Origin: Dromaius novaehollandiae
Taxonomy: Eukaryota
Reading direction: 5' to 3'
NCBI RefSeq assembly: GCF_036370855.1
Contig: NC_088128.1
Location: forward strand, 356,899-420,898
DNA length: 64,000 nt
The position numbers were made by a program, and so were the translations under genes. A model generated the notes under the pieces. The model was not told where the DNA came from. It saw only the letters and a list, made by a program, of their open reading frames with translations, and did not search any database. This document shows, in pieces, positions 3,995-63,377 of this stretch. Numbering within the stretch: the first letter of the stretch is position 1; every line of letters begins with the position of its first letter.

Positions 3995-4131
3995 ATGGCG
4001 GCCCCCCCGGGCGCGCTGCTGGCCGGCGGCGCCGCCTTCTTCCCGGGGCTCTTCGTGGCGGCGCGCGCGGCGCTGCGGCGGCTGCCGGGGCTGCGCTGGC
4101 CCGAGCCCGACGCCGTCATCGTGGCCGCCCG
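3995..4131 (+). CDS. TLCD3B: TLC-domain protein (FAM57/TLCD3 family), coding exon 1: MAAPPGALLAGGAAFFPGLFVAARAALRRLPGLRWPEPDAVIVAA-R(split codon). Donor GTAACG at 4132.
   Basis: ATG at 3995 in GC-rich context. The N-terminus matches my recollection of the FAM57 motif 'GGALFFPGLFA...R'. The exon ends CG|gtaacg (phase 2), and the first G of exon 2 completes Arg. It lies downstream of a GC-box array promoter. Confidence 0.7.
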
Positions 4132-4139
4132 GTAACGGC

Positions 4140-6540
4140 GGGGGGGGCGGACACCGGGGGGGGGGGGACACCGGGGGGGGGGACACCGGCGGGGGGGGGA
4201 CAGTGAGGGGACAGCGAGGGGACAGCGGGGATGGGGACAGTGAGGGGACAATGAGGGGACAGTGAAGGGACACCGGGGATGGGGACAGTGAGGGGACATT
4301 GACACCATGGGGACAGCGAGGGGTCACTGAGGGGACACTGAGGGGACACCGGGGGGGGACAGCGGGGATGGGGACAGTGAGGGGACAATGAGGGGACAGC
4401 GAGGGGACACCGGGGGGGGACAGTGAGGAGACAGCGAGGGGACAGCGGGGACGGCGAGGGGACAGTGAGGGGACAGTGAGGGGACAGCGAGGACACCAAG
4501 GGGACAGGGACGGGGATGGGGACAATGAGGGGACATTGACACCATGGAGACAGGGACAACGAGGGGACACCGGGGATGGGGACAGTGAGGGGACATTGAG
4601 GGGACAGTGAGGGGACACCGGGGGGGGGACACTGAGGGGACAGCGAGGGGACAGCGGGGATGGGGACAGTGAGGGGACACCGGGGATGGGGACAGTGAGG
4701 AGACAGCGAGGGGACAGCGAGGGGACAGCGGGGGGACATTGACACCAAGGGGACAGCGAGGGGACACCAGGGATGGGGACAGTGAGGGGACAGTGAGGGG
4801 ACACTGAGGGGACAGTGAGGGGACACCGGGAGGGGGGACAGCGAGGGGACACCGGGGATGGGGACAGTGAGGGGACAGTGAAGGGACAGCGAGGACACCA
4901 AGGGGACAGGGACGGGGATGGGGACAATGAGGGGACGTTGACACCATGGAGACAGGGACAACGAGGGGACACCGGGGATGGGGACAGTGAGGGGATAATG
5001 AGGGGACAGTGAGGGGACACCGGGAGGGGGGACAGTGAGGGGACAGGGATGGGGACAACGAGGGGACATTGACACCATGGGGACAGGGGCAACAAGGGGA
5101 CACCGGGGACAGAAAGGGGACAGTGAGGGGACACCAGGAGGGGGGACAGCGAGGGGACACTGGGGATGGGGACAGTGAGGGGACAGCGAGGGGACACCAG
5201 GGATGGGGACAGCGAGGGGACAGCGAGGGGACAGTGAGGGGACAGTGAGGGGACACCAGGGACAGTGAGGGGACAACGAGGGGACATTGACACCATGGGG
5301 ACGGGGACAACGAGGGGACACTGGGGACGGTGAGGGGACACCGGGGATGGGGACAGTGAGCAGACACCGGGGGGGGACACTGGGGACAATGAGGGGACAC
5401 CATGGGGATGGGGACAATGAGGGGACACTGAGGGGACGAGGGAGCATTGACACCATGGGGACAGGGACAACGAGGGGACACCGGGGATGGGGACAATGAG
5501 GGGACAGGGACGGTGAGGGGACAACAAGGGGACACCGGGGACAGTGAGGGGACACCGGGGGGGGTCACCAGGGACACCATGGGGACGGGGGCGGTGTGGG
5601 GACAACGAGGGGACACCGGGGACACTATGAGGACGGGGATGGGGACACGAAGGGGATGGGGACACTGTGGGGACAATGAGGGGACGACAGGGACACCGTG
5701 GGGATGGGGATGGTGTGGGGACAACAAGGGGACAGGGACACCAAGGGGACGTTGACACCATGGGGACGGGGATGGGGACAATGAGGGGACATTGATACCA
5801 TGGGGACAGGGACGGGGACAACGAGGGGACGGGGACAACGCGAGGACAGGGACATCCTCGGGACAGGGACGCCATGGGGACAGGGACAACGGGGACATGG
5901 GGACATCATGGGGACAGGGACACCACAGGGATGGGGACAGGGACAATGAGGGGACAGGGCCACTGTGGGGACAGGGACAGCATGGGGATGGGGACAGGGA
6001 CGGGGACAACAAGGGGACAGGGACATCATGGGGATGGGGACAACAAGGGGATGGGGACGGGGACCCCATGGGGATGGGGACAACGAGGGGACAGGGATGG
6101 GGACACCGTGGCGACGGGGACACCCTGGGGTTGGGGACACCTTGGGGACAGGGATGGCAGCAGCCGGGGGGGGGACGGGGCGGCTGCCGGTGGCCTTGTC
6201 CCCCCGTGTCCCCTCCTGTCCCCTGTGTCCCCTCCTGCCCCCGGCGTCCCCATCCCCCGCTGTCCTTTGACATCGATGTCCCCGACGTCCCTTGGTGTCC
6301 TCGTCCCTGTCCCTAGATGTCCACCCCCGTGTCCCGGGTGTCCCCAGCGTCACCGGCCTTGATGTCCCCATCCTTGTCCCCATCCCTGATGTCCCCAATG
6401 TCCCCAACGTCCGTGTCTGTGTCCCTTTGTGTCCCCAACGTCCGTGTCCCTCAGTGTCCCCGGTGTCCCCGAGGTCCCTGTCCCCGTCCCCGGTGTCCCC
6501 GGTGTCCCCCGCCCCCCCTGACGTCCCCAATGTCCCCCCC
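4140..6540. repeat. (GGGGACAGTGA / GGGGACACCGG)n minisatellite filling TLCD3B intron 1. The orientation flips at about 6170-6190 to (TGTCCCC)n, which forms the polypyrimidine tract of the exon 2 acceptor.
   Basis: Direct reading of the sequence. The six-frame 'ORFs' of 765 and 649 aa on the minus strand here are repeat translations. Confidence 0.9.
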
Positions 6541-6544
6541 CCAG

Positions 6545-6628
6545 GCTGGTGTCCTCGGTGCAGGCCATCATGGCCTCCACGGCCGGTTACATCATCTCCA
6601 GCTCCTGCCACCACGTCATCGATGACCA
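6545..6628 (+). CDS. TLCD3B: TLCD3-family coding exon 2: (R)LVSSVQAIMASTAGYIISSSCHHVIDD-Q(split)
   Basis: Acceptor ccccccccag|G at 6543-6544, preceded by a long (TGTCCCC)n pyrimidine tract. Donor CA|gtgagt at 6629. Phase is consistent with exons 1 and 3. Resembles FAM57 '[28 protein letters not shown]'. Confidence 0.7.
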
Positions 6629-6639
6629 GTGAGTCACCG

Positions 6640-8800
6640 GGGGGGACACCGGGGCCTGGGGGGGACACCGGGACCCATAGGTGCCACCACGAGCCATGGG
6701 TGTCACCAGGACCCGTAGGTGTCACCGGGACCCATAGGTGCCACCACGAGCCATGGGTGTCACCAGGACCCGTAGGTGTCACCGGGACCCATAGGTGCCA
6801 CCACGAGCCATAGGTGTCACCGGGACCCGCAGGTGTCACCAGGACCCATAGATGCCACCATGAGCCATGGGTGTCACCGGGACCCATAGGTGTCACCGGG
6901 ACCTGGGGGTGTCACCGGGACCCATAGGTGTCACCATGACTTGTGGGTGTCACTGGGACCCATAGATGCCTCCATGACCCCTGGGTGCCACCGGGACCCA
7001 TAGATGCCACCATGACCCATGGGTGTCACCATGACCCATAGATGCCACCATGACTTGTGGGTGTCACTGAGACCCATAGATGCCACCAAGACCTGTGGGT
7101 GCCACCAGGACCCATAGATGCCACCATGAGCCACGGGTGTCACCAGGACCCATAGGTGCCACCGGGACCCATAGGTGCCACCAGGACCCATGGGTGCTGC
7201 TAAGACCAACAGGGCACCCCGTCCTGCCCCATAGCACCCATAGGGCCCCATAGGACCCCGGTCCTGCCCCATAGCACCTATAGGGCACCCACAGGGTCCC
7301 AGCCCTGCCCCATAGCACCCATAGGGTCCCAGTCCTGCCCCATAGCACCCATAGGGCCCCATAGGACCCCGGTCCTGCCCCATAGCACCTATAGGGCACC
7401 CACAGGGTCCCAGTCCTGCCCCATAGCACCCACAGGACCCCGGTCCTGCCCCATAGCACCCATAGGACCCCGGTCCTGCCCCATAGCACCTATAGGGCCC
7501 TGCCCTGCCCCATAGCACCCATAGGGCCCCATAGGGCACCCAGCCCTTCCCCATAGCACCCATAGGACCCCGGTCCGGCCCCATAGCACCCATAGGACGC
7601 CAGTCCTGCCCTATAGCACCCATAGGGTCCCAGTCCTGCCCCATAGCACCCAAAGGCCCCATAGAGCACCCTGCCCTGCCCCATAGCACCCACAGGACTC
7701 CCAGCCCTGCCCCATAGCACCCACAGGGCCCCATAGGGCACCCAGTCCTGCCCCGTAGCACCCATAGGGCCCCGGTCCTGCCCCATAGCACCCATAGGGC
7801 CCCGGTCTTGCCCCATAGCACCCAAAGGCCCCATAGAGCACCCAGTCCGGCCCCATAGCACCCATAGGGCCCCCACAGGGTCCCTGCCCCCCCCCCCCGT
7901 CCCCGGCGCCGGCCGCGGTTCAGCACTGGACAGCGCCCGGACGCCTGGGCCCTTCCGAGCGGGGGGAGGGGCAGCGCCCGGACGCCTGGGCCCCGGGAGC
8001 GGCGGCGGCGGGAGGGGGAAGGGCAGCGCCCGGACGCCTGGGCCCCCCTCGGCCTTGCCCTTGGCGGGGATTAGCCCGGCTCGCCCGGACGCCTGGGCCC
8101 TTCCGAGCAGGGGGGAGGGGCAGCGCCCGGACGCCTGGGCTCTTGGAGCGGGGGGAGGGGCAGCGCCCGGACGCCTGGGCCCCCTCGGCCCTGCCCTTGG
8201 CGGGGATTTAGCCCTGAGCAGATGGGGATTAGCCCGGCCCCCCGCCCCCCCCCCCGGACGCCTGGGCCCTTGGCGGGGGCGGTGGGGGGAAGGGGGGGGG
8301 GGGGCCGGACACCTGGGCCCTCTCAGCCTTTTGCCCTTGAGCGGGGGAGGGGATTAGCCTGGCTCCGCCGGACGCCTGGGCCCATGGAACGGGGGAGGGG
8401 CAGCGCCCGGACGCCTGGGCCCCTCCTGGACACCTGGGCCCCTTGGGAGGGGGAGGGGAGCTGCCCGGACACCTGGGCCCCTTCCGGACACCTGGGCCCC
8501 CCGGGAGGGGGAGGGGAGCTGCCCAGACGCCTGGGCCCCACCTGGACATCGGGCCCCTCCCGGACACCTGGGCCCCCCCAGATGCCTCTCCCCCACCCGG
8601 ACGCCTGGGCCCCGCCCGGACACCTGGACCCCCTGGGAGGGGGAGGGGAGGGGCCGCCCGGACGCCTGGGCCCTTCAGGATCATCCAGATCATAGAGTGA
8701 AATTGGGGAGGGGGGATGGGACCACCTGGACGCCTGGGCCCCTTCTGGCCACCTGGGCCCCTCCCGGACACCTGGGCCCTCCCGGACGCCTGGGCCCTCC
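6640..8800. repeat. Consecutive minisatellites in TLCD3B intron 2: (GGTGTCACCGGGACCCATAG)n, (CCCCATAGCACCCATAGGGCCCCGGTCCTG)n, (CAGCGCCCGGACGCCTGGGCCC...)n
   Basis: Direct reading of the sequence. Confidence 0.9.
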
Positions 8801-8843
8801 CTGCACCCCCGCCGAGACGAAGCCCCGCCCCCTCCCCGCGCAG

Positions 8844-9063
8844 GCATTGGCTGGCGGGCGCCTACCCGGCCTTCGCGGTGCCCTACTTCGTCTACGACGT
8901 CTACGCCATGTTCCTCTGCCACTGGCACCGGGGCCGCGTCAAGGGCCACGAGGCCGGGCCACCGCCCTCGCTGCGGGCCGCCGCCGCCGCCTACCTCCGC
9001 AAGGACCTGCTCATGGTGCTCCACCACGCCGCCATGGTGCTCGTCTGCTTCCCCGTGGCCGCC
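8844..9063 (+). CDS. TLCD3B: TLCD3-family coding exon 3 (TLC domain core): (Q)HWLAGAYPAFAVPYFVYDVYAMFLCHWHRGRVKGHEAGPPPSLRAAAAAYLRKDLLMVLHHAAMVLVCFPVAA
   Basis: Acceptor cgcgcag|G at 8842-8843. Donor GCC|gtgagt at 9064. Conserved TLC-domain motifs are present (YDxYAM, HW, LxxHHAxxL). Confidence 0.8.
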
Positions 9064-10790
9064 GTGAGTGGGGACGGGGCGCGGGGACACGTTGGGGACG
9101 TGGGAACGGCTTGGGGACATGGGGACGTCTTGGGGACGTGGGATGGGGGGCCACCACCATGGGGGAGAGGTTCTCATGGTGGCTGCCATGGTTCCCGTTG
9201 GCCATCATGAGTGGGGACAGGGCTTGGGGACACCTTGGGGACATGGGGACATCTTGGGGACGTGGGATGGGGGGCCACCACCTTGGCGGAGATGTTCCCG
9301 TGGTGGCCGCCATGGTGGTTGTCTACTTCTCTTTGGCCACTATGAGTGGGGACAGGGCTTGGGGACACCTTGGGGACATGGAAATGGCCTGGGGACATTT
9401 GGAACATCTTGGGGACGTGGGATGGGGGGCCACCACCATGGGGGAGATGTTCTCGTGGGGGCCGCCATGGTGCTCATCTGCTTCCCTGTGGCCGCCGTGA
9501 GTGGGGACGGGGCTTGGGGACACGTTGGGGACGTGGGAACGGCTTGGGGACATGGGGACGTCTTGGGGACGTGGGATGGGGGGCCACCACCATGACGGAG
9601 ATGTTCTCGTGGGGGCCGCCATGGTGGTTGTCTACTTCTCTTTGGCCATCATGAGTGGGGACAGGGCTTGGGGACACCTTGGGGACGTGGAAACGGCTTG
9701 GGGACATGGGGACGTCTTGGGGACGTGGGATGGGGGGCCACCACCATGGGGGAGAGGTTCTCGTGGTGGCCGCCATGGTGCTCGTCTGCTTCCCCGTGGC
9801 TGCCGTGAGTGGGGACGGGGCTTGGGGACACGTTGGGGACGTGGAAGTGGCTTGGGGACATTGGGAACGTCTTGGGGACGTGGGATGGGGGGCCACCACC
9901 ATGGGGGAGAGGTTCTCATGGTGGCCGCCATGGTTCTCCTTTGGCCACTATGAGTGGGGACAGGGCTTGGGGACACCTTGGGGACATGGGGACGTCTTGG
10001 GGACGTGGGATGGGGGGCCACCACCTTGGCGGGGAGGTTCTCGTGGTGGCCACCATGGTGGTTGTCTACTTCTCTTTGGCCATCATGAGTGGGGACAGGG
10101 CTTGGGGACATCTTGGGGACGTGGAAATGGCTTGGGGACATTGGAACGTCTTGGGGACATGGGATGGGGGCCACCACCTTGGCCGGGAGGTTCTCATGGT
10201 GGCCGCCATGGTGCTCATCTGCTTCCCCGTGGCCGCCGTGAGTGGGGACGGGGCGCGGGGACACGTTGGGGACATGGAAACAGCCTGGGGACATGGGGAC
10301 GTCTTGGGGACACCAAGATGGCTCAGGGGTGGAGGAACGTCTTGGGGACGTGGGATGGGGGGCCACCACCATGGGGGAGATGTTCCCATGGTGGCTGCCA
10401 TGGTTCTCCTTTGGCCACTATGAGTGGGGACGGGGCTTGGGGACACCTTGGGGACATGGAAACGGCTTGGGGACATGGGGATGTCTTGGTGACATGGGAT
10501 GGGGGGCCACCACCATGGGGGAGAGGTTCTCATGGTGGCCGCCATGGTGGTTGTCTACGTCTCTTTGGCTGCCGTGAGTGGGGACGGGGCTTGGGGACAC
10601 CTTGGGGACATGGAAATGGCTTGGGGACATGGGGACGTCTTGGGGACATGGGATGGGGGGCCACCACCATGGCGGAGATGTTCCCATGGTGGCCACCACG
10701 GTTCCCCTTGGCCACCACGAGTGGGGACAGGGATCGGGGCCACCGTGGGGGTTGGGGCCCCCCCGGGTTGGCCCCCCCGGGCCCTCGTGT
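9064..10790. repeat. Array with about 140-bp unit and about 425-bp higher-order repeat in TLCD3B intron 3. Each higher-order copy contains a copy of the last 40 or so nt of exon 3 plus its GTGAGT donor.
   Basis: 'gccgccatggtgctcatctgcttcccYgtggcYgccgtgagtggggacgggg' at 9455-9500, 9765-9812 and 10197-10245. Degenerate copies (ATGAGT) at 9215, 9340, 9645 and 10075. Confidence 0.85.
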
Positions 10791-10832
10791 CCCCGTGTCA
10801 CCCCGTGTCCCCCCCCCCCCCCGTGTCCCCAG

Positions 10833-10928
10833 CTGTGGCGCCAGGGCAAGGGCGACTTCTTCCTGGGCTGCCTGCTCATGGCGGAGCTCAGCACCCCCTT
10901 CGTCTGCCTCGGCAAGGTGCTCGTCCTG
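10833..10928 (+). CDS. TLCD3B: TLCD3-family coding exon 4: LWRQGKGDFFLGCLLMAELSTPFVCLGKVLVL
   Basis: Acceptor ccccag|CTG at 10831-10832. Donor CTG|gtgagc at 10929. Phase 0 to 0. Conserved 'GDFFxGC...AELSTPFVxLG' motif. Confidence 0.8.
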
Positions 10929-10929
10929 G

Positions 10930-11960
10930 TGAGCCGGACGCCGGGGCCCCTCGGGGGCGGGGCCGGGACGCCGGGGCCCCTCGGGGGGACGGGAGGGCCC
11001 CCGGACGCCTGGGTCCCTCGGGAGGACGTGGGTGGGGTGGGAGGAACCTGGGACGCCTGGGCCCCTCGGGAGGACGTAGGGGTGAATTGGGGCCCCCACC
11101 CACCCGGACACCTGGGCCCCCGGACGCCTGGGCCCCTCGGGAGGACGTAGGGGTGAATTGGGGTCCCCGGACGCCTGGGCCCTTCGGGAGGACGTAGGGG
11201 TGAACCAAGGCCCCCACCCACCCGGACACCTGGGCCCCTGGGTGCTTGGACACTTGGGCCCCCCACGCTGTTGGCCGCCCGGACGCCTGGGCCCCTGCAC
11301 ACTTGGGTCCCCGGACACCTGGGCCCCCGCTCTCTTGGCCACCCGGACACCTGGGCCCCTTGGGAGGCCATAGGGGTGAACCAGGGCCCCTGGACACCTG
11401 GGTGCCCGGACGCCTGGGCCCCTGCATGCTTGGGTCCCCGGACACCTGGGCCCCTTGGGAGGTCATAGGGGTGAACCAGGGCCCCCGGACGCCTGGGCGC
11501 CCGGACGCCTGGGTCCCCGGACACCTGGGCCCCTTGGGAGAACATACGGGTGAACCAGGGCCCCTGGAACCTTGGGTCCCCGGACGCCTGGGCCCCTGGG
11601 TGCTTGGACACTTGGGCCCTCTCTCTCTTGGCCACCTGCTCCCCCGGAACCTGGGGTGCCCGGACGCCTGGGCCCCCCGCGCCGTTGCCTGCCCGGACAC
11701 CTGGGCCCCTTGGGAGGCCAGAGGGGTGAATCAGGGCCCCCGGACACCTGGGCCCCCGGACACCTGGGCCCCTTGGGAGGTCATAGGGGTGAACCAGGGC
11801 CCCTGGAACCTTGGGTGCCCGGACACCTGGGCCCCTGGGTGCTTGGACACTTGGGCTCCCTCTCTCTTGGCCACCTGCTCCCCCGGAACCTGGGGTGCCC
11901 GGACGCCTGGGCCCCCCGCGCCGTTGCCCGCCCGGACGCCTGGGCCCTCCCCCCCTCCCC
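10930..11960. repeat. About 60-bp minisatellite (CCGGACGCCTGGGCCCCTCGGGAGGACGTAGGGGTGAATTGGGGCCCC) in TLCD3B intron 4
   Basis: Direct reading. It shares the 'cggacgcctgggccc' core with the 7900-8800 array. Confidence 0.9.
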
Positions 11961-11971
11961 GCCCCGGCTAA

Positions 11972-12256
<285 letters not shown>

Positions 12257-12289
12257 CGGCGGGGGGGGGCGGGGGGCACCCTTGGGTGC

Positions 12290-13300
12290 GGGGGGTGGTG
12301 TCCTGGGAGCATCCTTGGGTGGCCCCAAGATGGCGGTTGCGGCGTAGGAGCACCCTTGGGTGGCCTCAAGATGGTGGCCATCGCCTAGAAGCGCTTTTGG
12401 GTGCTTTCAGGGTGGTGGCCATCTTCTAGGAGCACCCTTGGGTGTTCTCAAGATGGTGGTTGTGTCCTAGGAGCTCTTTTGGATGTTCTCAAGATGGTGG
12501 CCATCTCCTGGGAGCACTCTTGGGTGTCCCCAAGATGGCGGCCATCTCCTAGGAGCGCTCTTGGGTGTCTTCAAGATGGCGACCATCTCCTACAAGCACT
12601 TTTGGATGTTCTCAAGATGGTGGTCATGTCCTGGGAGCACCCTTGGGTGGCCTCAAGGTGATGGCCATCGCCTAGAAGCACTTTTGGATGTTCTCAAGAT
12701 GGTGGCCATGTCCTAGGAGCACCTTTGGGTGCTTTCAGGGTGCTGGCCATCTTCTAGGAGCGCCCTTGGGTGTCCTCAAGATGGTGGTCATCTTCTGGGA
12801 GCACCCTTGGGTGTCCTCAAGATGGCGGTTGTGTCATAGGAGCACGCTTGGGTGTTCTCAAGATGGTGGCCATCACCTAGAAGCGCTTTTGGGTGTCCTC
12901 AAGATGGTGGTCATCTTCTGGGAGCACTCTTGGGTGTCCCCAAGATGGTGGTCATGTCTTAGGAGCACCCTTGGGTGTTCTCAAAATGGCGGTTGTGTCG
13001 TAGGAGCACCCTTGGGTGGCCTCAAGATGGTGGCCATCTCCTGGGAGCACCTTTGGGTATTCTCAAGATAGTGGTCATCTTCTGGGAGCACCCTTGGGTG
13101 TCCTCAAGATGGTGGCTATCTCTTAGAAGCACTTTTAGATGTTTTCAAGATGGTGGCCATGTCCTGGGAGCACCCTTGGGTGTTGGGGGGCGTGGTGGGT
13201 GTCTCTTGGGAGCACCCTTGGGTGTCCCCAAGGTGGTGGCCATCTCCTAGAAGCACTTTTGGATGTTCTCAAGATGGTGGCCATGTCCTAGGAGCGCCCT
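12290..13300. repeat. 41-bp minisatellite of about 24 copies, each carrying a YY1-like AAGATGG(C/T)GGCCATC motif, in the TLCD3B 3' UTR
   Basis: Unit 'ctaggagcacccttgggtgttctcaagatggtggccatctc'. Exact AAGATGGCGGCC at about 12530 and 12330. Confidence 0.85.
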
Positions 13301-13475
13301 TGGGTGTCACCAGCCCCCCCCGGGTGCCCCCAGCGTCCCCAGGACCGTAGCAGCACCCAGGGGTGCCCTCGGGGTGGGGCCCCGGGCCAGTAGCAGCCCC
13401 CCGGGGACGCCTGGGCCCCCTGGGGACGCCTGGGCCCCCCCCGGGGCGGCGCCGCGCAGCAGCAATAACCTCAGT

Positions 13476-13481
13476 ATTAAA
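13476..13481 (+). terminator. TLCD3B: Candidate poly(A) signal ATTAAA for TLCD3B (3' UTR about 1.2 kb)
   Basis: This is the only AATAAA or ATTAAA hexamer on the + strand between the TLCD3B stop (12256) and the convergent MVP 3' end. It sits in a short AT-containing island (cagtattaaaggagcc). Confidence 0.3.
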
Positions 13482-13539
13482 GGAGCCTTCGGGAGCCCCC
13501 GGCCCCGCCTCCTGCTTGGGGCCCAGGCGTCCGGGCCCC

Positions 13540-14170: not shown

Positions 14171-14191
14171 TCACTGCTGCTGAAAGCCGCC

Positions 14192-15257: not shown

Positions 15258-15289
15258 CTGCGGGGGGGCGCTGACGTCAGCCCCGCCCC

Positions 15290-19870: not shown

Positions 19871-19880
19871 GACACGGGAC

Positions 19881-53380: not shown

Positions 53381-53399
53381 TCCCGGCGCCGCGGGGCAG

Positions 53400-55500: not shown

Positions 55501-55739
55501 GCCCTATAGGGCCTATAGGTGCCCCAGGGCCGCGCCGGCCCCCCCCAGGCCCGTGAATCCCCTCAGGGCGGCGGCGCCGCTGGCGGCCATTTTCCCTCCC
55601 CCCCCCCGCCCACGTCTTCCCGCCTCGCCGTTGCTAGGCGACCGGCGCCGCCATTTTGCGCGCCCTGCCCGCCCCGGCGGCGCGCATGCGCCACGCGCCG
55701 CTCCTTTCCCCCCCCCCCTCCCCTCCGCACGCGGGCGCG

Positions 55740-55860
55740 GCGGCGCGCTGCCATTGGGCGGCGGGAGGGGCGGGGCGCGCTGCCATTGGGCGGCGGCGGC
55801 GCGGGGGGCGGGGCGGGGCGGCGGCGGGCGCCTCGTTCAAACGGTCGCGGCGGCGGCGCG
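55740..55860 (+). promoter_or_regulatory. KIF22: KIF22 core promoter with two inverted CCAAT boxes 32 bp apart and a CHR element, preceding a candidate ATG at 55861
   Basis: ccattgg at 55751-55757 and 55783-55789. TTCAAA (CHR, reverse of TTTGAA) at 55836-55841. NRF1 palindrome GCGCATGCGC at 55682-55691. 'gccattttg' YY1-like cores at 55586 and 55643. The gene sits in a CpG island. This is the canonical G2/M (NF-Y plus CHR) promoter architecture expected for a mitotic kinesin. Confidence 0.6.
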
Positions 55861-55949
55861 ATGGCGGCGGCAGGTCGCGGCGGCGGCGCCCGGGGGTGGG
55901 GGGGGGAAGACGGGGAGCGGGACGGGGGTGGCCCCGGGGGGGGGGGTGG

Positions 55950-56940
55950 CCCTGGGAGGGGACAAGCCCTGAGGGGACAAATGCTGGGGGGGGCGACGGG
56001 GGGGGGAACAACCCTTGGGGGGGGACAAGCCCTGGGGGGGGGGACAGCCCCGGAGGGGGGTCACAAGGGAGGGGACAAGCCCTGAGGGCGGGTGACAAGG
56101 AGGGGGACAAGTCCTGGGGGGAGGGGACAAGGAGGGGGAAGCCCCGGGTGGGGGGGACAAGCCCTGAGGGGGGAAAATGCCTTGGGGGGGGTGACAAGGG
56201 GGGTGACAAGCCCCAAAGGGGGGGACACAAGCCTTGGGGGGGTGACAAGGGAGGGGACAAGCGCTGAGGGGGGTGACAAGAGAGGGGACAAGCCCTGAGG
56301 GGGGTGACAAGGGGGAAGAAGCCCTGGGGGGGGAGACAAGCCCTGGGGGGGAGAACAAGCCCTGGGGGAGGGTGACAAGGGGGGGACAAGCCCTTGGGGG
56401 GGGACAAGCCCTGGGGGGGGACAAGGAGGGGGAAGCCCCGGGTGGGGGGGACAAGCCCTGAGGGGGGGGAAATGCCTTGGGGGGTTGGCAAGGGGGGTGA
56501 CACAAGCCTTGGGGGGGTGACAAGGGAGGGGACAAGCCCTGAGGGGGGTGGCAAGGGGGAAGAAGCTCTTGGGGGGGGGACAAGCCCTGGGGGAGGGTGA
56601 CAAGGGGGGGACAAGCTCTTGGGGGGGGGACCAGGTGGGGGGACAAGCCCCAAGGGGGAGTGACAACCCCTGAGAGGGGGACAAGGGAGGTGACAAGCCC
56701 TGAGGGGGGGGGACAGGCCTGAGGGGGGTGACAAGGCAGGTGACAAGCCCTGAGGGGGGGGACAGGCCTGAGGCGGGTGACAAGGCGGGTGACAAGCCCT
56801 GAGGGGGGTGACAAGGGAGGTGACAACCCCTGAGGGGGGGTGACAACCCCTGAGGGGGGGGTGACAACCCGAGGGGGGGTGACAAGCCCTGAGGGGGGGG
56901 ACAAGAGGGGGGACACCCCCAAGGGCCACACACCGGGGCT
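55950..56940. repeat. (GGGGACAAGCCCTGAGGGGGGTGACAAGGGAGG)n in KIF22 intron 1
   Basis: Direct reading of the sequence. Confidence 0.85.
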
Positions 56941-57012
56941 AACCGTGGGGGGGGGCTGTCACCCGCACCCACAGGCGACAGCACCCATGGGTGCCGGGGG
57001 CACCGGGTGCAG

Positions 57013-57119
57013 GTGTGCGTGCGGCTGCGGCCCGGCGCCGCCGGCGAGGAGCCCCGGGTGCTGCCCGTGGACGCCCGCACCCTCCGCCTCCTCCACGGCC
57101 CCGGCGCCACCGAGTACCG
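57013..57119 (+). CDS. KIF22: KIF22 coding exon (motor domain start): VCVRLRPGAAGEEPRVLPVDARTLRLLHGPGATEY(R)
   Basis: Acceptor gggtgcag|GTG at 57011-57012. Donor CG|gtaaaa at 57120. Matches human 'VRVAVRLRPF...' at the start of the kinesin motor domain. Confidence 0.75.
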
Positions 57120-57192
57120 GTAAAACAGGGTGACAAAGGCGCCGGGTGACACCCATGGGTGCCCCCCGCGTCACCCTTGTCGCCGGTTGTAG

Positions 57193-57320
57193 CTTCGACG
57201 CCGTCTACGGCCCCGGCGCCTCGCAGAGCGACGTCTACCTGGGCTCCGTGCGCCCGTTGTTGTCCCACCTGGCGCAGGGCCGCAACGTCACCGTCCTCGC
57301 CTACGGGCCCAGCGCCGCCG
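57193..57320 (+). CDS. KIF22: KIF22 coding exon: (R)FDAVYGPGASQSDVYLGSVRPLLSHLAQGRNVTVLAYGPSAA(G)
   Basis: Acceptor ttgtag|C. Donor G|gtgagt. Matches human '[43 protein letters not shown]' (first half of the P-loop). Confidence 0.85.
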
Positions 57321-57394
57321 GTGAGTCCCCCCCCCGCCGCACGACAGCACCCATGGGTGCCCCAGCACCCTGAGCACCCCGTTTGCGTCCCCAG

Positions 57395-57525
57395 GGAAGA
57401 CCTACACCATGCTGGGCAGCGCCGAGGAGCCGGGCGTCATCCCCCGGGCCGTGCGGGACCTGCTGGGGCTGGCGGGGCCCTGTGCCACTGTCACCGCGTC
57501 CTACCTGGAGATCTACCAGGAGCGG
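57395..57525 (+). CDS. KIF22: KIF22 coding exon: (G)[43 protein letters not shown]
   Basis: Acceptor gtccccag|GG. Donor CGG|gtgagg. Matches human '[24 protein letters not shown]...SYLEIYQEK' (P-loop GKT). Confidence 0.85.
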
Positions 57526-57589
57526 GTGAGGCGGGGGCACCCATGGGTGCTGCGCGGCGGGGGGTGCCACCACCCACCCTTTCTTTCCC

Positions 57590-59040
57590 ACCCAAATCTG
57601 GGTGTTTTTGCCTCAGGGTGACGCCCAGCGGGTGCCACCTCCCCGTCAGCCATTTTGTCCTCCTCAAATCTGGGTGTTTTCACCTCAGGTTGACGCCCAG
57701 TGGGTGCTGCCACCCATCACCCTTCGTTTCCCACCCAAATCTGGATATTTTTGCTTCAGGGTGCCACCCAGCGGGTGCCACCGCCCCATCAGCCATTTTG
57801 TCCCCTCAAAGCTGGGTGTTTTTACCTCAGGGTGACGCCCAGCGGGTGCCACCACCCCGTCAGCCATTTTGTTTCGCTCAAATCTGGGTGTTTTCACTTC
57901 AGGGTGACGCCCAGTGGGTGTTACCACCCCATCAGCCATTTTGTCTCCTCAGATCTGAGTGTTTTTGTCTCAGGGTGACACCCAGTTGGTGCCACCACCC
58001 TGTCAGCCATTTTGTCCCCCTTAAATCTGGGTGTTTTTACCTCAGGACGACACCCAGTGGGTGCTGCCACCCATCACCCTTCGTTTCCCCCCAAATCCAG
58101 GCTGTTTTCACCTCAGAGTGACACCCAGTGGGTGCCACCACCCTGTCAGCCATTTTGTCCCCCCAAATCTGTGCTTTTTCCACCCCGTCAGCCATTTTGT
58201 CCCCCTCAAATCTAGGTGTTTTCATCTCAGGGTGACACCCAGTGGGTGCTGCCACCCATCACCCTTCGTTTCCCATTTGAATCTGGGTGTTTTCACCTCA
58301 GGGTGACGCCCAGCGGGTGCCACCACCCTGTCAGCCATTTTGTCCCCCTCAAATCTGGGTGTTTTTACCTCAGGGTGACACCCAGCAGGTGCCACCACCC
58401 CATCAGCCATTTTGTCCCCCCAACCCGCACGTTTTCCACCCCGTCGGCCATTTTGTCCCCCCAAATCTGTGCGTTTTCCACCCTATCGGCCATTTTGTCC
58501 CCCAAACCCACACGTTTTCCACCCCGTCGGCCATTTTGTCCCCCAAACCTGTGTGTTTTCACCCCATCAGCCATTTTGTCCCCCAAACCCACACGTTTTC
58601 CACCCTGTCAGCCATTTTGTCCCCCAAATCCGTGCTTTTTCCACCCTGTCGGCCATTTTGTCCCCCAAACCTGCGCATTTTCCACCCCGTCGGCCATTTT
58701 GTCCCCCAAACCTGCGCATTTTCCACCCCGTCAGCCATTTTGTCCCCCCAACCCGCACGTTTTCCACCCCGTTGGCCATTTTGTCCCCCAAACCCACATG
58801 TTTTCCACCCTGTCAGCCATTGTGTCCCCCCAAACCCGTGCGTTTCTGCCCCGGGTGACCCCACAGCAGGTGCCACCATCTTGTCAGCCATTTTGTCCCC
58901 CAAATCCGTGCTTTTTCCACCCTGTCAACCATTTTGTCCCCCCAACCCGTGCGTTTTCCACCCCATCAGCCATTTGTCCCCCCAACCCACACGTTTTCCA
59001 CCCTGTCGGCCATTTTGTCCCCCAAACCCGCGCGTTCCCA
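57590..59040. repeat. About 59/118-bp minisatellite in KIF22 intron 4. Units carry CAGCCATTTTGTCC (YY1-like core) and acceptor-like TGTTTTTACCTCAG|GGTGAC.
   Basis: Direct reading. About 12 copies of 'atctgggtgtttt(t/c)acctcagggtgacgcccag'. Later copies read 'ccgtcggccattttgtcccccaaacc'. Confidence 0.9.
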
Positions 59041-59072
59041 CCCCGGCTGACCCCGTCCCCCACCCCGCGCAG

Positions 59073-59688
59073 CTCGTGGACCTGTTCGCCCCGCCGGGCC
59101 CCCCGCTACGCCTCCGCGACACCTCCCCGCCGGCGGTGCCGGGCTTGACCGAGGTGCCCGTGCGCGACGCCGCCGCCTTCGAGCGCCTCTTCGTCCCCGC
59201 CGCCCGCCGCCGCCGCCGCGCCGCCGCCACCCGCCTCAACGCCGCCTCCAGCCGGGGCCACGCGTTGCTGCTGCTCCGCCTGCGCCCCCCCGGCGTCACC
59301 TTGCTGCTGGGGGACCTGGCGGGCGCCGAGGACAACCGGCGCACGGGCAACGCCGGCCGGCGCCGCCTGCGCGAGAGCGGTGCCATCAACGCCTCCCTGG
59401 GGGCCTTGCGGCGGGTGGTGGCCGCCCTGGCGCGGGGTGACGGCCGCCGGCGGCGTCACCCGGTGCCGTACCGCGACAGTAAGTTGACGCGGGCGCTGCG
59501 CGACGCCCTGGGCGGCTCGGCCCGCGCTCTGCTGCTGGCCGCCGTGGCGCCGGGGCCCCGCGAGGCCGCCGCCGCTCGCGCCGCCCTCGACTTTGCCGCC
59601 GCTGCCGCCGGCGTCGTCAACCGCGACGTGGTGGTGGCTGCACCGCCGGAGCCACCGTCGGAGCCGGAGCCGGGTGACGGGGAGCAGG
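59073..59688 (+). CDS. KIF22: KIF22 large coding exon (switch I/II and neck): LVDLFAPPGPPLRLRDTSPPAVPGLTEVPVRDAAAFERLFVPAARRRRRAAATRLNAASSRGHALLLLRLRPPGVTLLLGDLAGAEDNRRTGNAGRRRLRESGAINASLGALRRVVAALARGDGRRRRHPVPYRDSKLTRALRDALGGSARALLLAAVAPGPREAAAARAALDFAAAAAGVVNRDVVVAAPPEPPSEPEPGDGEQ
   Basis: Acceptor ccgcgcag|CTC at 59071-59072. Kinesin signatures are present: SSRGH (SSRSH), DLAGAE (DLAGSE), VPYRDSKLTR. The first in-frame-compatible donor is CAGG|gtgagg at 59689. The same donor sequence is repeated about 14 times in the downstream array, so the 3' boundary could be a later copy. Confidence 0.75.
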
Positions 59689-59689
59689 G

Positions 59690-60560
59690 TGAGGCCAAAC
59701 GGGGACGTTGGGTGACGTTGGGGGACGTTGGGGGACATTGGGGACCACAGTGAGGCCAAGGGGGGGCGTTGGGGACCAGGGTGAGGTCACCGGGGGGACG
59801 TTGGGGGATGTTGGGGACAAGGGTGAGGCCAAGGGGAGACGTTGGGGACCAGGGTGAGGCCAAGGGGAGACGTTGGGGACCATGGTGAGGCCAAGTGGGG
59901 ACATTGGGGGACATTGAGGACAGGGATGAGGCCAAGGGGGGACGTTGCGGGACATTGGGGACAAGGATGAGGCCACCAGGAGGATGTTGGGGGACATTGG
60001 GGACCAGGGTGAGGCCAAGGGGAGGACATTGGGGACCACAGTGAGGCCAAGGGGAGACGCTGGGGACCAGGGTGAGGCCGAGCGGGGACATTGGGGGACG
60101 TTGGGGACCACAGTGAGGCCAAGGGGAGACGCTGGGGACCAGGGTGAGGCCAAGGGGGGACGTTGGAGACCAGGGGACATTGGGGACCAGGGTGAGGCCA
60201 CTGGGGAGACATTGGGAGATGTTGGGAGACATTGGGCGATGTTGGGGACAAGGATGAGGCGGGGGGGACACGTTGGGGGACATTGGGGACCAGGGTGAGG
60301 CCAAGGGGGATGTTGGGGACCAGGGTGAGGTCACCAGGGGGATGTTTGGAGATGTTGGGGGACGTTGGGGGACATTGGGGACCAGGATGAGGCCAAGCGA
60401 GGACATTGGGAGATGTTGGGGGACGTTGGGGACCGGGGTGAGGCCAAAGGGGGACATTGGGGACCCGGTGAGGACAGGGGGGCGCCGGGGACCTGTGGGG
60501 GTGACAAGGAGGGACATTGGGGACATGGGGGGACACTGGGGACACAGAGGGGACACTGGG
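59690..60560. repeat. About 60-bp minisatellite directly abutting KIF22 exon 5. It contains about 14 copies of that exon's donor context CCAGG|GTGAGGCCAAGG.
   Basis: Exon end 'ggagcagggtgaggccaaacgggg' versus repeats 'ggaccagggtgaggccaaggggagacgttgg'. Confidence 0.85.
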
Positions 60561-60600
60561 GGGACATTGGGGTCCCCTCACCCCCTCGCTCCCTCCGCAG

Positions 60601-60634
60601 GTGCCGCTGACGTCCCCGACACCCCGCAGGCCGG
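60601..60634 (+). CDS. KIF22: KIF22 small coding exon: (G)AADVPDTPQA(G)
   Basis: Acceptor ccctccgcag|GTG. Donor GG|gtaggc. Phase links exon 5 (phase 1) to the next exon. Weak conservation. Confidence 0.45.
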
Positions 60635-61273
60635 GTAGGCACCCATGGGTGGGGGGCCTGGGGGGTCCCCGGGGTGTCCCCAGGGTGCCCGAGGGGGGTT
60701 CCTAGGGTGGCACAGGGCCCCCAGAGTGTCCTCGAGGGTCCCTAGAGTGTCACAGGGTCCCCAGGGTGCTCCGGGGGGGTCCCTAGGGTGGCACAGGGTC
60801 CCCAGGGCGTCCCAGGGTGCTCTGGGGGGTCTCTAGGGTGTCAGAGGGTCCCCAGGGTGTCCCAGGGTGCCCTGGGGGGTCCCTAGGGTGGCAGAGGATC
60901 CCTGGGGGGGTCCCTAGGGTGGCGCAGGGTCCCCAGGGTGTCCCAGGGTGCCCTGGGGGGTCCCTAGGGTGGCAGAGGACCCCTGGGGGGGTCCCTAGGG
61001 TGGCGCAGGGTCCCCAGGGTGTCCCCATGGTGCCGGGGGGGGTCCCCAGGGTGTCCCCAGGATGCCCGGGGGGTCCCTAGGGTGTCCTGGGGTCTCTGGG
61101 GTGTCCCCAGGGTGCCTGGGGTGTTCTCTAGGGTGGCACGGGGTGCCCGGGGGGGTCCTGGGGGGTCCCTAGGGTGTCCTGGGGTCCCCGGGGTGCTTTG
61201 GGGGGTCCCTAGGGTGGCACAGGGTGCCCTGGGAGGTCCCCGGCTAACGGGTGCCCCCCCGCCGTGTCCCCAG

Positions 61274-61331
61274 GGCGCCGGCGTCCCCCTCGCTGCTGCG
61301 CCGCCTCGACGACGCCCAGGAGCTGCTGGAG
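61274..61331 (+). CDS. KIF22: KIF22 coding exon: (G)APASPSLLRRLDDAQELLE
   Basis: Acceptor gtccccag|G. Donor GAG|gtgagc. Resembles human 'DPAMLERLLSLDRLLAS'. Confidence 0.5.
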
Positions 61332-61888
61332 GTGAGCGCTGGCACCCGCGGGCGACGGGGACACCCATGGGTGCTGGGGACACCCGCAGGGGACCAGGGA
61401 CACCCTCGGGTGCTGGGGACACCCACCGGGTGCATGTGACACCCGCGGGCGAGGGGGACACCCATGGGTGCTGGGGACACCCACAGGTGCTGGTGACATC
61501 CACTGAGTGTTGGTGACACCCACGGGGGACCAGGGACACCCACGGGTGCCAGTGATACCCGTGGGGGACCAGGGACACCCGTGGGTGCCGTGACACCCAC
61601 CAGGTACCGGTGACACCAGTGGGTGGACAAATGATACCTGCCGGGTGGCAGTGACACCCATGGGTGACAAGGGACACCCACTGGGTGCTGGTGACACCCA
61701 CTGGGTGCCAGTGACACCCCTGGAGGGACAAGTGACACTCTCTGGGTGCCAGTGACACCCACCGGGCACTGGCAACACCCATGGGGGGACAAGTGACACC
61801 CACTGGGTGCCAGTGACACCCCTGGAGGGACAAGTGACACCCACCGGCTGCCGGTGACACCCATGGGTGCTCCCCTGCTCCTCCGCAG

Positions 61889-62023
61889 AAGCTGAAGGCC
61901 CGGCACCCGCCCACGCCGGCGGCACCCCGGGGGGCTCCCGGCACCCCGCCCCCCTCCCCGCCCCAGGGCCCAGGCGTCCGGGTGTCCCCGGCCGAGGCGC
62001 CCGTGGTGCTGCTGCGCAGGAAG
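61889..62023 (+). CDS. KIF22: KIF22 coding exon: KLKARHPPTPAAPRGAPGTPPPSPPQGPGVRVSPAEAPVVLLRRK
   Basis: Acceptor ctcctccgcag|AAG. Donor AAG|gtgggt. Phase 0 to 0. Basic and proline-rich linker. Weak conservation. Confidence 0.45.
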
Positions 62024-63212
62024 GTGGGTGCTGGCGGCGGCGGGGGGCACCCATGGGTGCTGGGGGGGCACCATGGGTGGTGGTGGGGGCACCCGTGGGT
62101 GCTGGGGGGGCACCATGGGTGATGGTGGGCACCCAAGGGTGGTGGTGGGGGCAGCCATGTTTGGGGGGTCACTCGTGGGTGCTGGTGGGGGGCACCCATG
62201 GGTCCTGGGGACAGCCGGGGTGCTAGTGGGGGGCACCCATGGGCACTGGGGACACCCAGGGGTGCTGGTGGAGACCCACGGGTGCTGGTGGGGGGCACCC
62301 ACAGGTGGTGGGGGGGCCCCATGGGCACTGGGGACACCCGTGGGTGCTGGTTGGGGTCACCTGTGGGCACTGGGGACACCCAGGAGCGGTGGTGGGGGGC
62401 ACCCATGGGTGCTGGTGGGGACCCATGGCTGGTGGGGGGGGCCCCCATGGGCACTGGGGACACCCTTGGGTGCTGGTGGGGACCTACGGGTGCTGGTTGG
62501 GGACACCTGTGGGTGGGGGGACCCATGGGTGCTGGTGGGGGGGCACCTGTGGGCCCTGGGGACACCCATGGGTGCTGGTGGGGACCCACAGGTGCTGGTT
62601 GGGGTCACCTGTGGGTGTTGGGGGGCCCCCATGGGCACTAGGGACACCCATGGGTGCTGGTTGGGGTCACCTGTGGGCACTGGGGACACCCAGGAGCGGT
62701 GGTGGGGGGCACCCATGGGTGCTGGTGGGAACCCATGGCTGGTGGGGGGGGCCCCCATGGGCACTGGGGACACCCATGGGTGCTGGTGGGGATCACCTGT
62801 GGGTGGGGGGACCCGTGGGTGCTGGTGGGGGGGCACCTATGGGCACTGGGGACACCCATGGGTGCTGGTGGGGACCTACAGGTGCTGGTTGGGGACACCC
62901 ATGGGTGTTGGGGGGCCCCCATGGGCACTGGGGACACCCATGGGTGCTGGTGGGGACCCACAGGTGCTGGTTGGGGTCACCTGTGGGCACTGGGGACACT
63001 CATGGGTGCTGGTGGGGACCCATGGGTGCTGGGGGGGGCACCTATGGGCCCTGGGGACACCCATGGGTGCTGGTGGGGACCCATGGGTGCTGGTGGGGGG
63101 GCACCTATGGGCCCTGGGGACACCCATGGGTGCTGGGGGGGGGTCACCTGTGGGTGGGGGCCCCCGTGGGTGCCGGGTAGCACCCATGGGTGCCACCACG
63201 GTGTCCCCGCAG

Positions 63213-63377
63213 GGCGGGGGGGGCTGGGAGGCGCGGCGTCGCCCCGAGCTGCTGGCGGCCGCCGGGCGCCGGGTGCTGCGGGGGCTCAACGGGGACCCGG
63301 GGGCCCTGCGGCGGGTGGGCACCCGCCGGGCCCGGCGCCTCCTGGCCTGGCGCCGCCACCGCGGCCCCTTCGCCCGC
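63213..63377 (+). CDS. KIF22: KIF22 coding exon (helix-hairpin-helix DNA-binding region): GGGWEARRRPELLAAAGRRVLRGLNGDPGALRRVGTRRARRLLAWRRHRGPFAR
   Basis: Acceptor gtccccgcag|GGC. Donor CGC|gtgagt. Matches human '[43 protein letters not shown]'. The gene continues past the window end. Confidence 0.7.

What the first reader, a model, noticed from the sequence alone, without database searches (positions are those of the whole stretch)
3995..63377. A reshuffled, repeat-inflated ortholog of the human 16p11.2 block: TLCD3B then MVP (reverse) then KIF22
All three genes are neighbours of one another in human 16p11.2, where the order is KIF22-MAZ-PRRT2-PAGR1-MVP ... FAM57B. Here TLCD3B and MVP are convergent with about 1.9 kb between stop codons. 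About 9.5 kb of pure minisatellite separates MVP from KIF22, with no MAZ/PRRT2/PAGR1-like exons. MVP is stretched to about 31 kb by repeat-filled introns although its exons are compact.
Basis: partly seen in the sequence, partly recalled or inferred. Interest (0 to 1): 0.5.

Follow-up and report, generated by a model that had tools for sequence, protein, structure and literature searches.

The report
Repeat-swollen bird TLCD3B–MVP–KIF22 gene cluster
The interval holds three intact bird genes (TLCD3B, MVP, KIF22) whose introns and spacers are swollen by tandem repeats, a recently described trait of bird dot-type microchromosomes, and their order is largely ancestral rather than reshuffled.

Summary
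TLCD3B lies on the + strand (5 coding exons, 3995-12256). MVP lies on the - strand (16 coding exons, 45954-14274). KIF22 lies on the + strand (at least 8 coding exons, 55861-63377; its last exon is outside the window). All junctions used in the models are GT-AG; the KIF22 exon 5 donor is weak and its position uncertain.

Identities are secure. MVP scores 1255 bits against human MVP in one collinear stretch. The kinesin motor scores 259 bits against KIF22, versus 141 for the next kinesin. All 120 best TLC-domain hits are TLCD3B/FAM57B; none is TLCD3A.

Tandem repeats cover 82% of the window but only 8% of coding sequence. No MAZ, PRRT2 or PAGR1 exons were found.

"Reshuffled" is only partly right. 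The order KIF22-MVP-TLCD3B is the human order. The convergent TLCD3B/MVP pairing also occurs in a frog and a skink, so it is ancestral. Only the orientation of KIF22 and the absence of MAZ/PRRT2/PAGR1 differ from human.

The repeat inflation matches "sequence stuttering" and "exon stuttering" reported for chicken dot chromosomes in 2026. Example: 16 intronic copies of the MVP exon 2 end, each with an intact splice donor.

One oddity: the MVP start codon reads ACG, not ATG.

Verdict: a new example of a known kind, of modest interest.

The parts
3995..12256 (+). TLCD3B (FAM57B) gene. Coding exons: 3995-4131, 6545-6628, 8844-9063, 10833-10928, 11993-12256 (TGA at 12254-12256). Product 266 aa.
   Evidence: All four junctions are GT-AG and the frame is intact. 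Pfam TLC domain PF03798, E=1e-30. All 120 best database hits are named FAM57B, TLCD3B or 'ceramide synthase'; the best is the crane Balearica at 87%.
9234..10702 (+). Tandem array (period about 154/309) in TLCD3B intron 3. It carries three copies of the last 36 nt of exon 3 plus its GTGAGT donor, at 9461-9496, 9769-9804 and 10202-10237.
   Evidence: TRF. blastn copies are 94-97% identical to the exon end. The donor is retained in every copy. Chicken has independent copies of the same exon end; crane, falcon, swan, cuckoo, skink and frog have one copy.
12257..14273 (.). 2017 bp between the convergent stop codons of TLCD3B and MVP (the two 3' UTRs). It is 72% tandem repeat.
   Evidence: No Pfam family in its ORFs.
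14274..45954 (-). MVP (major vault protein) gene. Coding exons, high to low coordinate: 45954-45836, 43222-43027, 38461-38338, 38257-38126, 35247-35153, 35067-34831, 32498-32373, 30983-30825, 28015-27765, 24648-24451, 22779-22641, 20092-19881, 18113-17997, 16336-16210, 15257-15069, 14405-14274 (TGA at 14276-14274). 850 codons.
   Evidence: All 15 junctions are GT-AG. The assembled protein aligns 1-846 to human MVP 3-857 in one stretch, 1255 bits, E=0. Pfam Vault, Vault_2, Vault_3 and MVP_shoulder are found in its ORFs. dN/dS is 0.21 against another bird over 355 codons.
45952..45954 (-). ACG at the position of the MVP initiator codon.
   Evidence: The window reads CTGCCCC ACG GAG GAC CCC. Another bird's contig (L004) reads CTGCCCC ATG GAG GAC CCT. 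There is no in-frame ATG between the upstream in-frame TGA (46107-46105) and this codon.
40545..42949 (-). Exon-stuttering array in MVP intron 2: 16 copies, period 155 bp, of the last 78 nt of exon 2 together with the start of the intron.
   Evidence: The copies are 92-100% identical to the exon end; the nearest copy is 100% identical. All 16 keep CAG|gtacctatag and an open 26-codon frame.
20136..20540 (-). Three copies of the first 36-45 nt of MVP exon 12 with its polypyrimidine-CAG acceptor, inside intron 11.
   Evidence: blastn identity 89-94%. Acceptors are retained.
45955..55860 (.). Head-to-head spacer of 9906 bp between MVP and KIF22, 93% tandem repeat. It must contain both promoters and any 5' UTR exons.
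   Evidence: Long ORFs here are repeat read-through with no Pfam family. No zinc fingers and no MAZ/PRRT2/PAGR1 similarity.
55753..55789 (+). Two inverted CCAAT boxes (ATTGG at 55753 and 55785), 108 and 76 bp upstream of the KIF22 ATG. Probable core promoter.
   Evidence: Sequence and motif positions. The promoter role is inferred, not shown.
55861..63377 (+). KIF22 gene, 3' end cut by the window. Coding exons: 55861-55873 (tentative), 56975-57119, 57193-57320, 57395-57525, 59073-about 59656 (3' boundary uncertain, 59656-59716), 61274-61331, 61889-62023, 63213-63377. 453 aa in the window.
   Evidence: Motor domain: KIF22 structure 6nje 259 bits against 141 bits for the next kinesin. Pfam Kinesin, E=5e-66. 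Best of 1.84 billion representatives is ostrich KIF22 XP_068779331.1, 84% over the motor. The model is 73% identical to ostrich residues 18-452. The ostrich C-terminus LEQLAQVPGF... has no match in 63378-64000.

Best explanation
This is an ordinary, functional three-gene neighbourhood of a bird. It lies in the very GC-rich, minisatellite-dense kind of sequence typical of the euchromatic part of avian dot-type microchromosomes.

TLCD3B and MVP sit tail to tail, as they already did in the tetrapod ancestor. KIF22 sits head to head with MVP. The coding exons are short, intact and under purifying selection.

Nearly everything between the exons has been filled by local tandem duplication of units of tens to hundreds of bases. 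This is the process recently named sequence stuttering. Where a duplicated unit straddles an exon border, part of the exon and its splice site are copied into the intron (exon stuttering).

Shown here: the gene identities, the intact frames, the canonical splice sites, the repeat coverage, the exon-derived copies with intact splice sites, and the same TLCD3B/MVP pairing in frog and skink.

Inferred, not shown: that the repeats arise by replication slippage or unequal exchange in a high-recombination, GC-biased region; that selection removes any expansion that damages an exon; that the spliceosome ignores the decoy sites; and that the region lies on a dot chromosome.
For: - Gene models with GT-AG junctions: 4 of 4 in TLCD3B, 15 of 15 in MVP, and those chosen for KIF22.
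- MVP scores 1255 bits to human MVP over 846 residues.
- KIF22 scores 259 bits against 141 for the next kinesin. Ostrich KIF22 is the best hit among 1.84 billion representatives.
- The best 120 TLC-domain hits are all TLCD3B.
- TRF covers 82% of the window, 66-99% of long introns and 8% of coding exons. GC3 is 0.96-0.99.
- Exon-border copies with intact splice sites: 16 for MVP exon 2, 3 for MVP exon 12, 3 for TLCD3B exon 3.
- Another bird's contig carries MVP exons 1-8 in 5.5 kb, against 15.1 kb here. Chicken and cuckoo TLCD3B are also stretched, to 12.5 and 11 kb, against 3.4-4.1 kb in falcon and crane.
- Skink and frog have TLCD3B(+) followed by MVP(-).
- dN/dS for MVP is 0.21.
- Published descriptions of the same phenomenon: PMC12954441 and the zebra finch telomere-to-telomere preprint 10.1101/2025.10.14.682431.
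Against: - There is no transcript evidence for any of the models.
- MVP has ACG where an ATG is expected.
- The KIF22 first exon and the 3' boundary of its exon 5 are tentative, and its last exon is missing from the window.
- The species and chromosome are unknown, so "dot chromosome" rests on composition only.
- Five other bird assemblies (crane, falcon, chicken contig, swan, cuckoo) show no MVP within 10 kb downstream of TLCD3B. The bird-wide state is therefore unsettled.
- Exact repeat copy numbers depend on the assembly.
Confidence: 0.85

Rival explanations
1. One reading: the ancestor had the human-like order with many genes between these three, and this bird lineage reshuffled and deleted its way to the present compact trio.
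For: MAZ, PRRT2 and PAGR1 are absent between MVP and KIF22. KIF22 is inverted relative to MVP when compared with human (human order; human orientations from my own knowledge). In chicken, MAZ lies elsewhere on chr38, listed between EIF3C and TUFM in the supplement of PMC12954441, so some rearrangement of this region in birds is real.
Against: The TLCD3B/MVP convergent pairing is present in a frog and a skink, so that part is ancestral. Gene order is collinear with human. The polarity of the KIF22 change is untested.
Confidence: 0.15
2. Assembly artefact: the repeats are over-expanded or the three genes were joined wrongly in a hard-to-assemble region.
For: 82% of the window is tandem repeat. 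The literature reports coverage drop-outs and assembly trouble in exactly such regions. The swan assembly joins TLCD3B to KIF22 without MVP, so at least one of the two assemblies could be wrong.
Against: There are no Ns. Every exon of the three genes is present once, in order, with intact frames and splice sites. TLCD3B next to MVP is corroborated by two outgroups. KIF22 downstream of TLCD3B on the same strand is corroborated by swan. Comparable inflation is seen in chicken and cuckoo TLCD3B.
Confidence: 0.06
3. MVP is a gene in the course of being lost: the start codon is gone, and the swan may already lack the gene at this position.
For: ACG replaces ATG. No MVP lies between TLCD3B and KIF22 in the swan assembly. 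Heavy gene loss on dot chromosomes is documented.
Against: An 850-codon frame is open across 16 exons, with 15 canonical introns and 1255 bits to human MVP. dN/dS is 0.21. A single T-to-C change could also be a sequencing error, a polymorphism, or be bypassed by near-cognate initiation.
Confidence: 0.07

Closest known systems
Sequence stuttering and exon stuttering of genes on chicken dot chromosomes (Hron et al. 2026, PMC12954441; example PHF8 on chr29)
   Same: Introns are filled by local, imperfect tandem repeats with units of tens to hundreds of bases, confined between intact exons. Copies of an exon border with its splice site lie in the adjacent intron. The copy numbers (3-16) and exon-part lengths (36-78 nt) fall within the published ranges of 1-44 copies and 20-187 nt.
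   Different: This is a different species: the chicken TLCD3B fragment is 81% identical over the 73% of the query it covers. TLCD3B, MVP and KIF22 do not appear in that paper's text or in its held supplements. Chromosome identity and variation between individuals were not testable here.
Human 16p11.2 BP4-BP5 block (KIF22, MAZ, PRRT2, PAGR1, MVP, CDIPT ... DOC2A, C16orf92, FAM57B, ALDOA)
   Same: The same three orthologues occur in the same order, and MVP and TLCD3B are convergent. In crane and falcon, ALDOA (and in falcon also PPP4C) flanks TLCD3B on its far side as in human.
   Different: The three genes between KIF22 and MVP and the ten between MVP and FAM57B are absent. KIF22 is inverted. 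The introns are repeat-filled and GC3 is 0.96-0.99.
TLCD3B/MVP loci of the skink Tiliqua scincoides and the frog Nanorana parkeri
   Same: TLCD3B(+) is immediately followed by MVP(-), 3.9 and 7.3 kb apart.
   Different: The skink locus is 49% GC, and the last part of its MVP (residues 480-842) spans 5.9 kb, against 10.4 kb here.
Euchromatic arms of zebra finch dot chromosomes (preprint 10.1101/2025.10.14.682431)
   Same: Very high minisatellite density (51%) concentrated in the introns of GC-rich genes.
   Different: That report is chromosome-wide statistics with 10-30 bp units. Here many units are 100-500 bp and some are derived from exons.

Membership tests
Major vault protein (MVP) | Full-length collinear similarity to MVP, covering the vault repeat domains, shoulder and cap helix | tested here: met
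   Residues 1-846 align to human MVP 3-857 in one stretch, 1255 bits. Pfam Vault, Vault_2, Vault_3 and MVP_shoulder are found in the exon-bearing ORFs.
Major vault protein (MVP) | Complete open reading frame with an AUG start | tested here: not met
   The frame is open to the stop, but the codon aligned to the initiator Met is ACG and there is no upstream in-frame ATG in the exon. This does not affect orthology, only the certainty of expression.
KIF22 (kinesin-10, Kid) | Kinesin motor domain closest to KIF22 among kinesin families | tested here: met
   6nje (KIF22) 259 bits; next best KIF3C 141 bits. The top representative is ostrich KIF22, and the next hits whose names were looked up are KIF22 of rattlesnake, swan, bichir and an acorn worm.
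KIF22 (kinesin-10, Kid) | C-terminal helix-hairpin-helix DNA-binding region | tested here: inconclusive
   Exon 63213-63377 is 66% identical to the matching part of ostrich KIF22. Pfam gives no hit for the 56-residue piece alone, and the final exon is outside the window. The swan KIF22 product carries a weak HHH_3 hit.
TLCD3B (FAM57B), as opposed to TLCD3A | TLC domain, with closest relatives named TLCD3B/FAM57B | tested here: met
   PF03798, E=1e-30. All 120 listed hits are FAM57B, TLCD3B or 'ceramide synthase', from fish to mammals, at 46-91% identity, and none is TLCD3A. The conserved neighbour ALDOA in crane and falcon fits.
Sequence stuttering (Hron et al. 2026) | Introns dominated by local imperfect tandem repeats that stop at exon borders, leaving exons intact | tested here: met
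   TRF covers 66-99% of introns longer than 600 bp and 8% of coding exons; all frames are intact.
Sequence stuttering (Hron et al. 2026) | Exon stuttering: copies of an exon border with its splice site in the adjacent intron, above the paper's 42.1-bit threshold | tested here: met
   MVP exon 2: 16 copies at 114-141 bits. MVP exon 12: 3 copies at 57-64 bits. TLCD3B exon 3: 3 copies at 57-62 bits. All start at the exon border and keep the splice site.
Sequence stuttering (Hron et al. 2026) | Location on a dot chromosome | not testable with these tools
   The origin of the window is unknown. Only composition and the placement of crane and swan TLCD3B on 0.5-0.7 Mb chromosome records point that way.
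Sequence stuttering (Hron et al. 2026) | Intron length varies between individuals and between species | tested here: inconclusive
   Between species, yes: MVP exons 1-8 span 5.5 kb in another bird and 15.1 kb here, and TLCD3B spans 3.4-12.6 kb across birds. Variation within a species cannot be tested.

The most novel reading that the evidence does not exclude
The 16 intronic copies of the MVP exon 2 end all keep a perfect splice donor and an open frame. Together with an MVP start codon that reads ACG, they might not be neutral debris. They could act on MVP expression, as decoy or poison splice sites or through non-AUG initiation. If so, exon stuttering would have a regulatory consequence in this bird.
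Probability: 0.08. Interest if true: 0.55.

Novelty: new member of a known kind. Interest (0 to 1): 0.3.

Why it matters
It adds a clean example, outside chicken, of sequence and exon stuttering at three well-known genes. It shows that the same exon-intron junction (the TLCD3B exon 3 donor) carries copies with different borders in chicken and in this bird, which points to independent expansion.

It also corrects a tempting synteny inference. The compact TLCD3B/MVP pairing is the ancestral tetrapod state, so the human 16p11.2 arrangement is the derived one at that point.

For annotation, it shows that such genes can be recovered intact from sequence that is more than 80% minisatellite. Decoy splice sites and a non-ATG start may mislead automatic gene callers.

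Tried and rejected
They returned only short fragments, because that search favours hits of similar length. They still gave bird fragments used later.
Every positive was re-tested with PDB, Pfam or database searches. The negatives rest partly on those recalled sequences.
It was replaced by 175 ORFs packed into two alignments.
Three look-ups found no record: the duck and zebra finch TLCD3B and the ostrich KIF22, all isoform X2 products.
- The sterlet locus showed no neighbour within 10 kb.
- Downstream regions of the crane and falcon loci share only low-complexity similarity with the window.
- Rfam and tRNA scans found nothing.
- An upstream mini-exon (ATG...CAG|GTGAGT at about 46130) was considered as a source of an MVP start. 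It was rejected because its phase gives a stop at the only nearby acceptor.
- The similarity between MVP exons 5 and 6 is ancient vault-repeat paralogy, not stuttering.

Full report
**What is in the window**

The 64 kb are 57-77% GC. 87.5% of bases lie in 12-mers that occur at least twice in the window. Tandem Repeats Finder covers 82%. About 7.9 kb is unique, in short islands, and most of the islands are exons.

**Gene models**

I used recalled human protein sequences only as leads for tblastn. I then chose splice sites by requiring GT-AG, frame continuity and the best junction peptide.

- TLCD3B, + strand: exons 3995-4131, 6545-6628, 8844-9063, 10833-10928, 11993-12256. Product 266 aa.
- MVP, - strand: 16 coding exons from 45954 down to the TGA at 14276-14274. 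There are 850 codons and 2553 nt of coding sequence in 31,681 bp.
- KIF22, + strand: exons 55861-55873 (tentative), 56975-57119, 57193-57320, 57395-57525, 59073-about 59656, 61274-61331, 61889-62023, 63213-63377. This gives 453 aa.
  - The C-terminal 34 or so residues seen in ostrich KIF22 have no match in 63378-64000, so the gene runs off the window.
  - Two inverted CCAAT boxes lie 76 and 108 bp upstream of the KIF22 ATG.

**Identity tests**

- MVP: the assembled protein aligns 1-846 to human MVP 3-857 in one stretch, 1255 bits.
- KIF22: the KIF22 motor structure 6nje scores 259 bits and the next kinesin 141. Pfam Kinesin gives E=5e-66. The best of 1.84 billion representatives is ostrich KIF22 isoform X2, 84% over the motor. 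The next hits whose names I looked up are KIF22 of a rattlesnake, swan, bichir and an acorn worm.
- TLCD3B: Pfam TLC domain. All 120 best hits are FAM57B, TLCD3B or "ceramide synthase", from fish to mammals, and none is TLCD3A.
- The best TLCD3B identities are 87% (crane) and 81% (chicken, a partial protein covering 73% of the query). The window is therefore neither of those species.

**Missed genes**

- I scanned against Pfam all 175 ORFs of 30 aa or more that carry at least 45 unique bases outside the modelled exons. Only vault and kinesin families appeared, from ORFs that overlap known exons.
- A six-frame C2H2 pattern search gave one chance match.
- Recalled MAZ, PRRT2, PAGR1, ALDOA, CDIPT and DOC2A sequences gave no tblastn hit.
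- Rfam and tRNA scans were empty.
- The 9906 bp between MVP and KIF22 is 93% tandem repeat. The 2017 bp between the TLCD3B and MVP stops is 72%.

**Synteny**

The human order is KIF22, MAZ, PRRT2, PAGR1, MVP, CDIPT, SEZ6L2, ASPHD1, KCTD13, TMEM219, TAOK2, HIRIP3, INO80E, DOC2A, C16orf92, FAM57B, ALDOA, PPP4C (PMC7945342). Read right to left, the window is KIF22(-) MVP(+) TLCD3B(-). That is the same order. From my own knowledge of the human gene orientations, MVP and TLCD3B are convergent as in human, and only KIF22 is flipped.

Loci fetched around TLCD3B orthologues show the following.

| Species | Arrangement |
|---|---|
| Skink (Tiliqua) | TLCD3B(+) then MVP(-), about 3.9 kb apart |
| Frog (Nanorana) | TLCD3B(+) then MVP(-), 7.3 kb apart |
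| Crane | ALDOA(-) TLCD3B(+); no MVP or KIF22 within 10 kb downstream |
| Falcon | PPP4C, ALDOA(-), TLCD3B(+); no MVP or KIF22 within 10 kb downstream |
| Chicken | 28 kb unplaced contig; TLCD3B exons 3-5 spread over 12.5 kb |
| Cuckoo | TLCD3B spans 11 kb |
| Swan | TLCD3B(+) then KIF22(+) 3.4 kb downstream; no MVP, no Ns |

The tail-to-tail TLCD3B/MVP pairing is therefore ancestral for tetrapods and is retained here. The swan supports KIF22 lying downstream of TLCD3B on the same strand in birds, but it lacks MVP, either by loss or by assembly collapse. The polarity of the KIF22 orientation change and of the absence of MAZ/PRRT2/PAGR1 remains untested. In chicken, MAZ is on chr38, listed between EIF3C and TUFM (supplement of PMC12954441).

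**Repeat inflation**

- Every intron longer than 600 bp is 66-99% tandem repeat. The five introns of 73-85 bp have none. Coding exons are 8% covered. GC3 is 0.96-0.99.
- A contig from another bird carries MVP exons 1-8 in 5.5 kb, against 15.1 kb here.
- Some arrays are derived from exon borders:
  - The last 78 nt of MVP exon 2, with the start of intron 2, is repeated 16 times at a 155 bp period (40545-42949). The copies are 92-100% identical. Every copy keeps CAG|gtacctatag and an open frame.
  - The first 36-45 nt of MVP exon 12, with its acceptor, occurs three more times in intron 11.
  - The last 36 nt of TLCD3B exon 3, with GTGAGT, occurs three more times in intron 3.
- Chicken also has two extra copies of the TLCD3B exon 3 end, but with a different copy border. 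Crane, falcon, swan, cuckoo, skink and frog have a single copy. This points to independent expansion at the same junction.

**Comparison with what is known**

Hron et al. 2026 (PMC12954441) describe exactly this in chicken dot chromosomes. They report introns filled by local imperfect repeats ("sequence stuttering") and copies of exon borders with their splice sites ("exon stuttering"). Their ranges are 1-44 copies, 20-187 nt of exon and spans of 112-23,555 bp. They mention that they saw it in some other birds.

The zebra finch telomere-to-telomere preprint reports 51% minisatellite density in dot-chromosome euchromatin, concentrated in introns.

TLCD3B, MVP and KIF22 are not named in the Hron paper or in its held supplements. 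The window is thus a new example of a known kind.

**Function and constraint**

All three frames are intact. MVP has dN/dS of 0.21 against the other bird over 355 codons.

The one blemish is the MVP start. The window reads CTGCCCC ACG GAG GAC, where the other bird reads CTGCCCC ATG GAG GAC. There is no in-frame ATG upstream within the exon. This could be a base error, a polymorphism, near-cognate initiation, a start in an unseen upstream exon, or early decay. I cannot tell which.

**Verdict**

"Reshuffled" overstates the case, because the TLCD3B/MVP pairing is ancestral and the order is collinear with human.

The mechanism of inflation (local tandem duplication tolerated only outside exons) is inferred from the anatomy and from the literature. 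It is not demonstrated here.

Noticed in passing
window 45952-45954 (- strand): The MVP initiator position reads ACG. Another bird's contig (L004 765-767) has ATG in the same context. There is no in-frame ATG upstream in the exon, and the next in-frame Met is about 45 codons downstream.
   Followed up: partly
window 1879-2490: A unique promoter-like island about 1.5-2 kb upstream of the TLCD3B ATG. All five ATGCAAAT octamers of the whole 64 kb lie at 2308-2480. It also holds two GCGCATGCG (NRF1-like) motifs and five CCAAT/ATTGG boxes. ALDOA(-) is the expected neighbour (crane, falcon), but no ALDOA coding exon is in the window.
   Followed up: partly
L005 (Cygnus olor CM030314.1) 10001-16115: The swan assembly has TLCD3B(+) followed 3.4 kb later by KIF22(+), with no MVP between them and no gaps. 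Upstream it has an olfactory receptor instead of ALDOA. This is either MVP loss or relocation in swan, or an assembly collapse.
   Followed up: partly
window 9461-10237; L003 (chicken) 4441 and 5389: The 3' end of TLCD3B exon 3 is copied into intron 3 in both this bird and chicken, but with different copy borders. Six other species have a single copy. This suggests recurrent expansion at one junction.
   Followed up: yes
window 59073-59656 and the whole KIF22 model: One 584 bp exon covers what aligns to human KIF22 residues 183-371. Bird KIF22 is short (ostrich 486 aa against 636 aa in rattlesnake), with most of the stalk missing. Switch I reads SSRGH and switch II reads DLAGAE, and the protein is rich in Ala, Arg, Gly and Pro.
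   Followed up: no
window 39958-40464 (MVP intron 2): A unique island of about 500 bp with lower GC (0.53) inside otherwise repetitive intron 2. It has no Pfam family, and only a 39 bp match to intron 2 of the other bird (L004 1850-1888).
   Followed up: partly
window 47441-50388 (+ strand): Open reading frames of 895 and 936 codons run through the intergenic minisatellite (PWGRPPSPWGRLAPRGAD... repeats). They have no family match. They are most likely stop-free read-through of GC-rich repeats that could fool ORF-based gene callers.
   Followed up: yes
all coding exons of the three genes: Third-position GC is 0.96-0.99 and exon GC is 0.77, an extreme of GC-biased composition.
   Followed up: no
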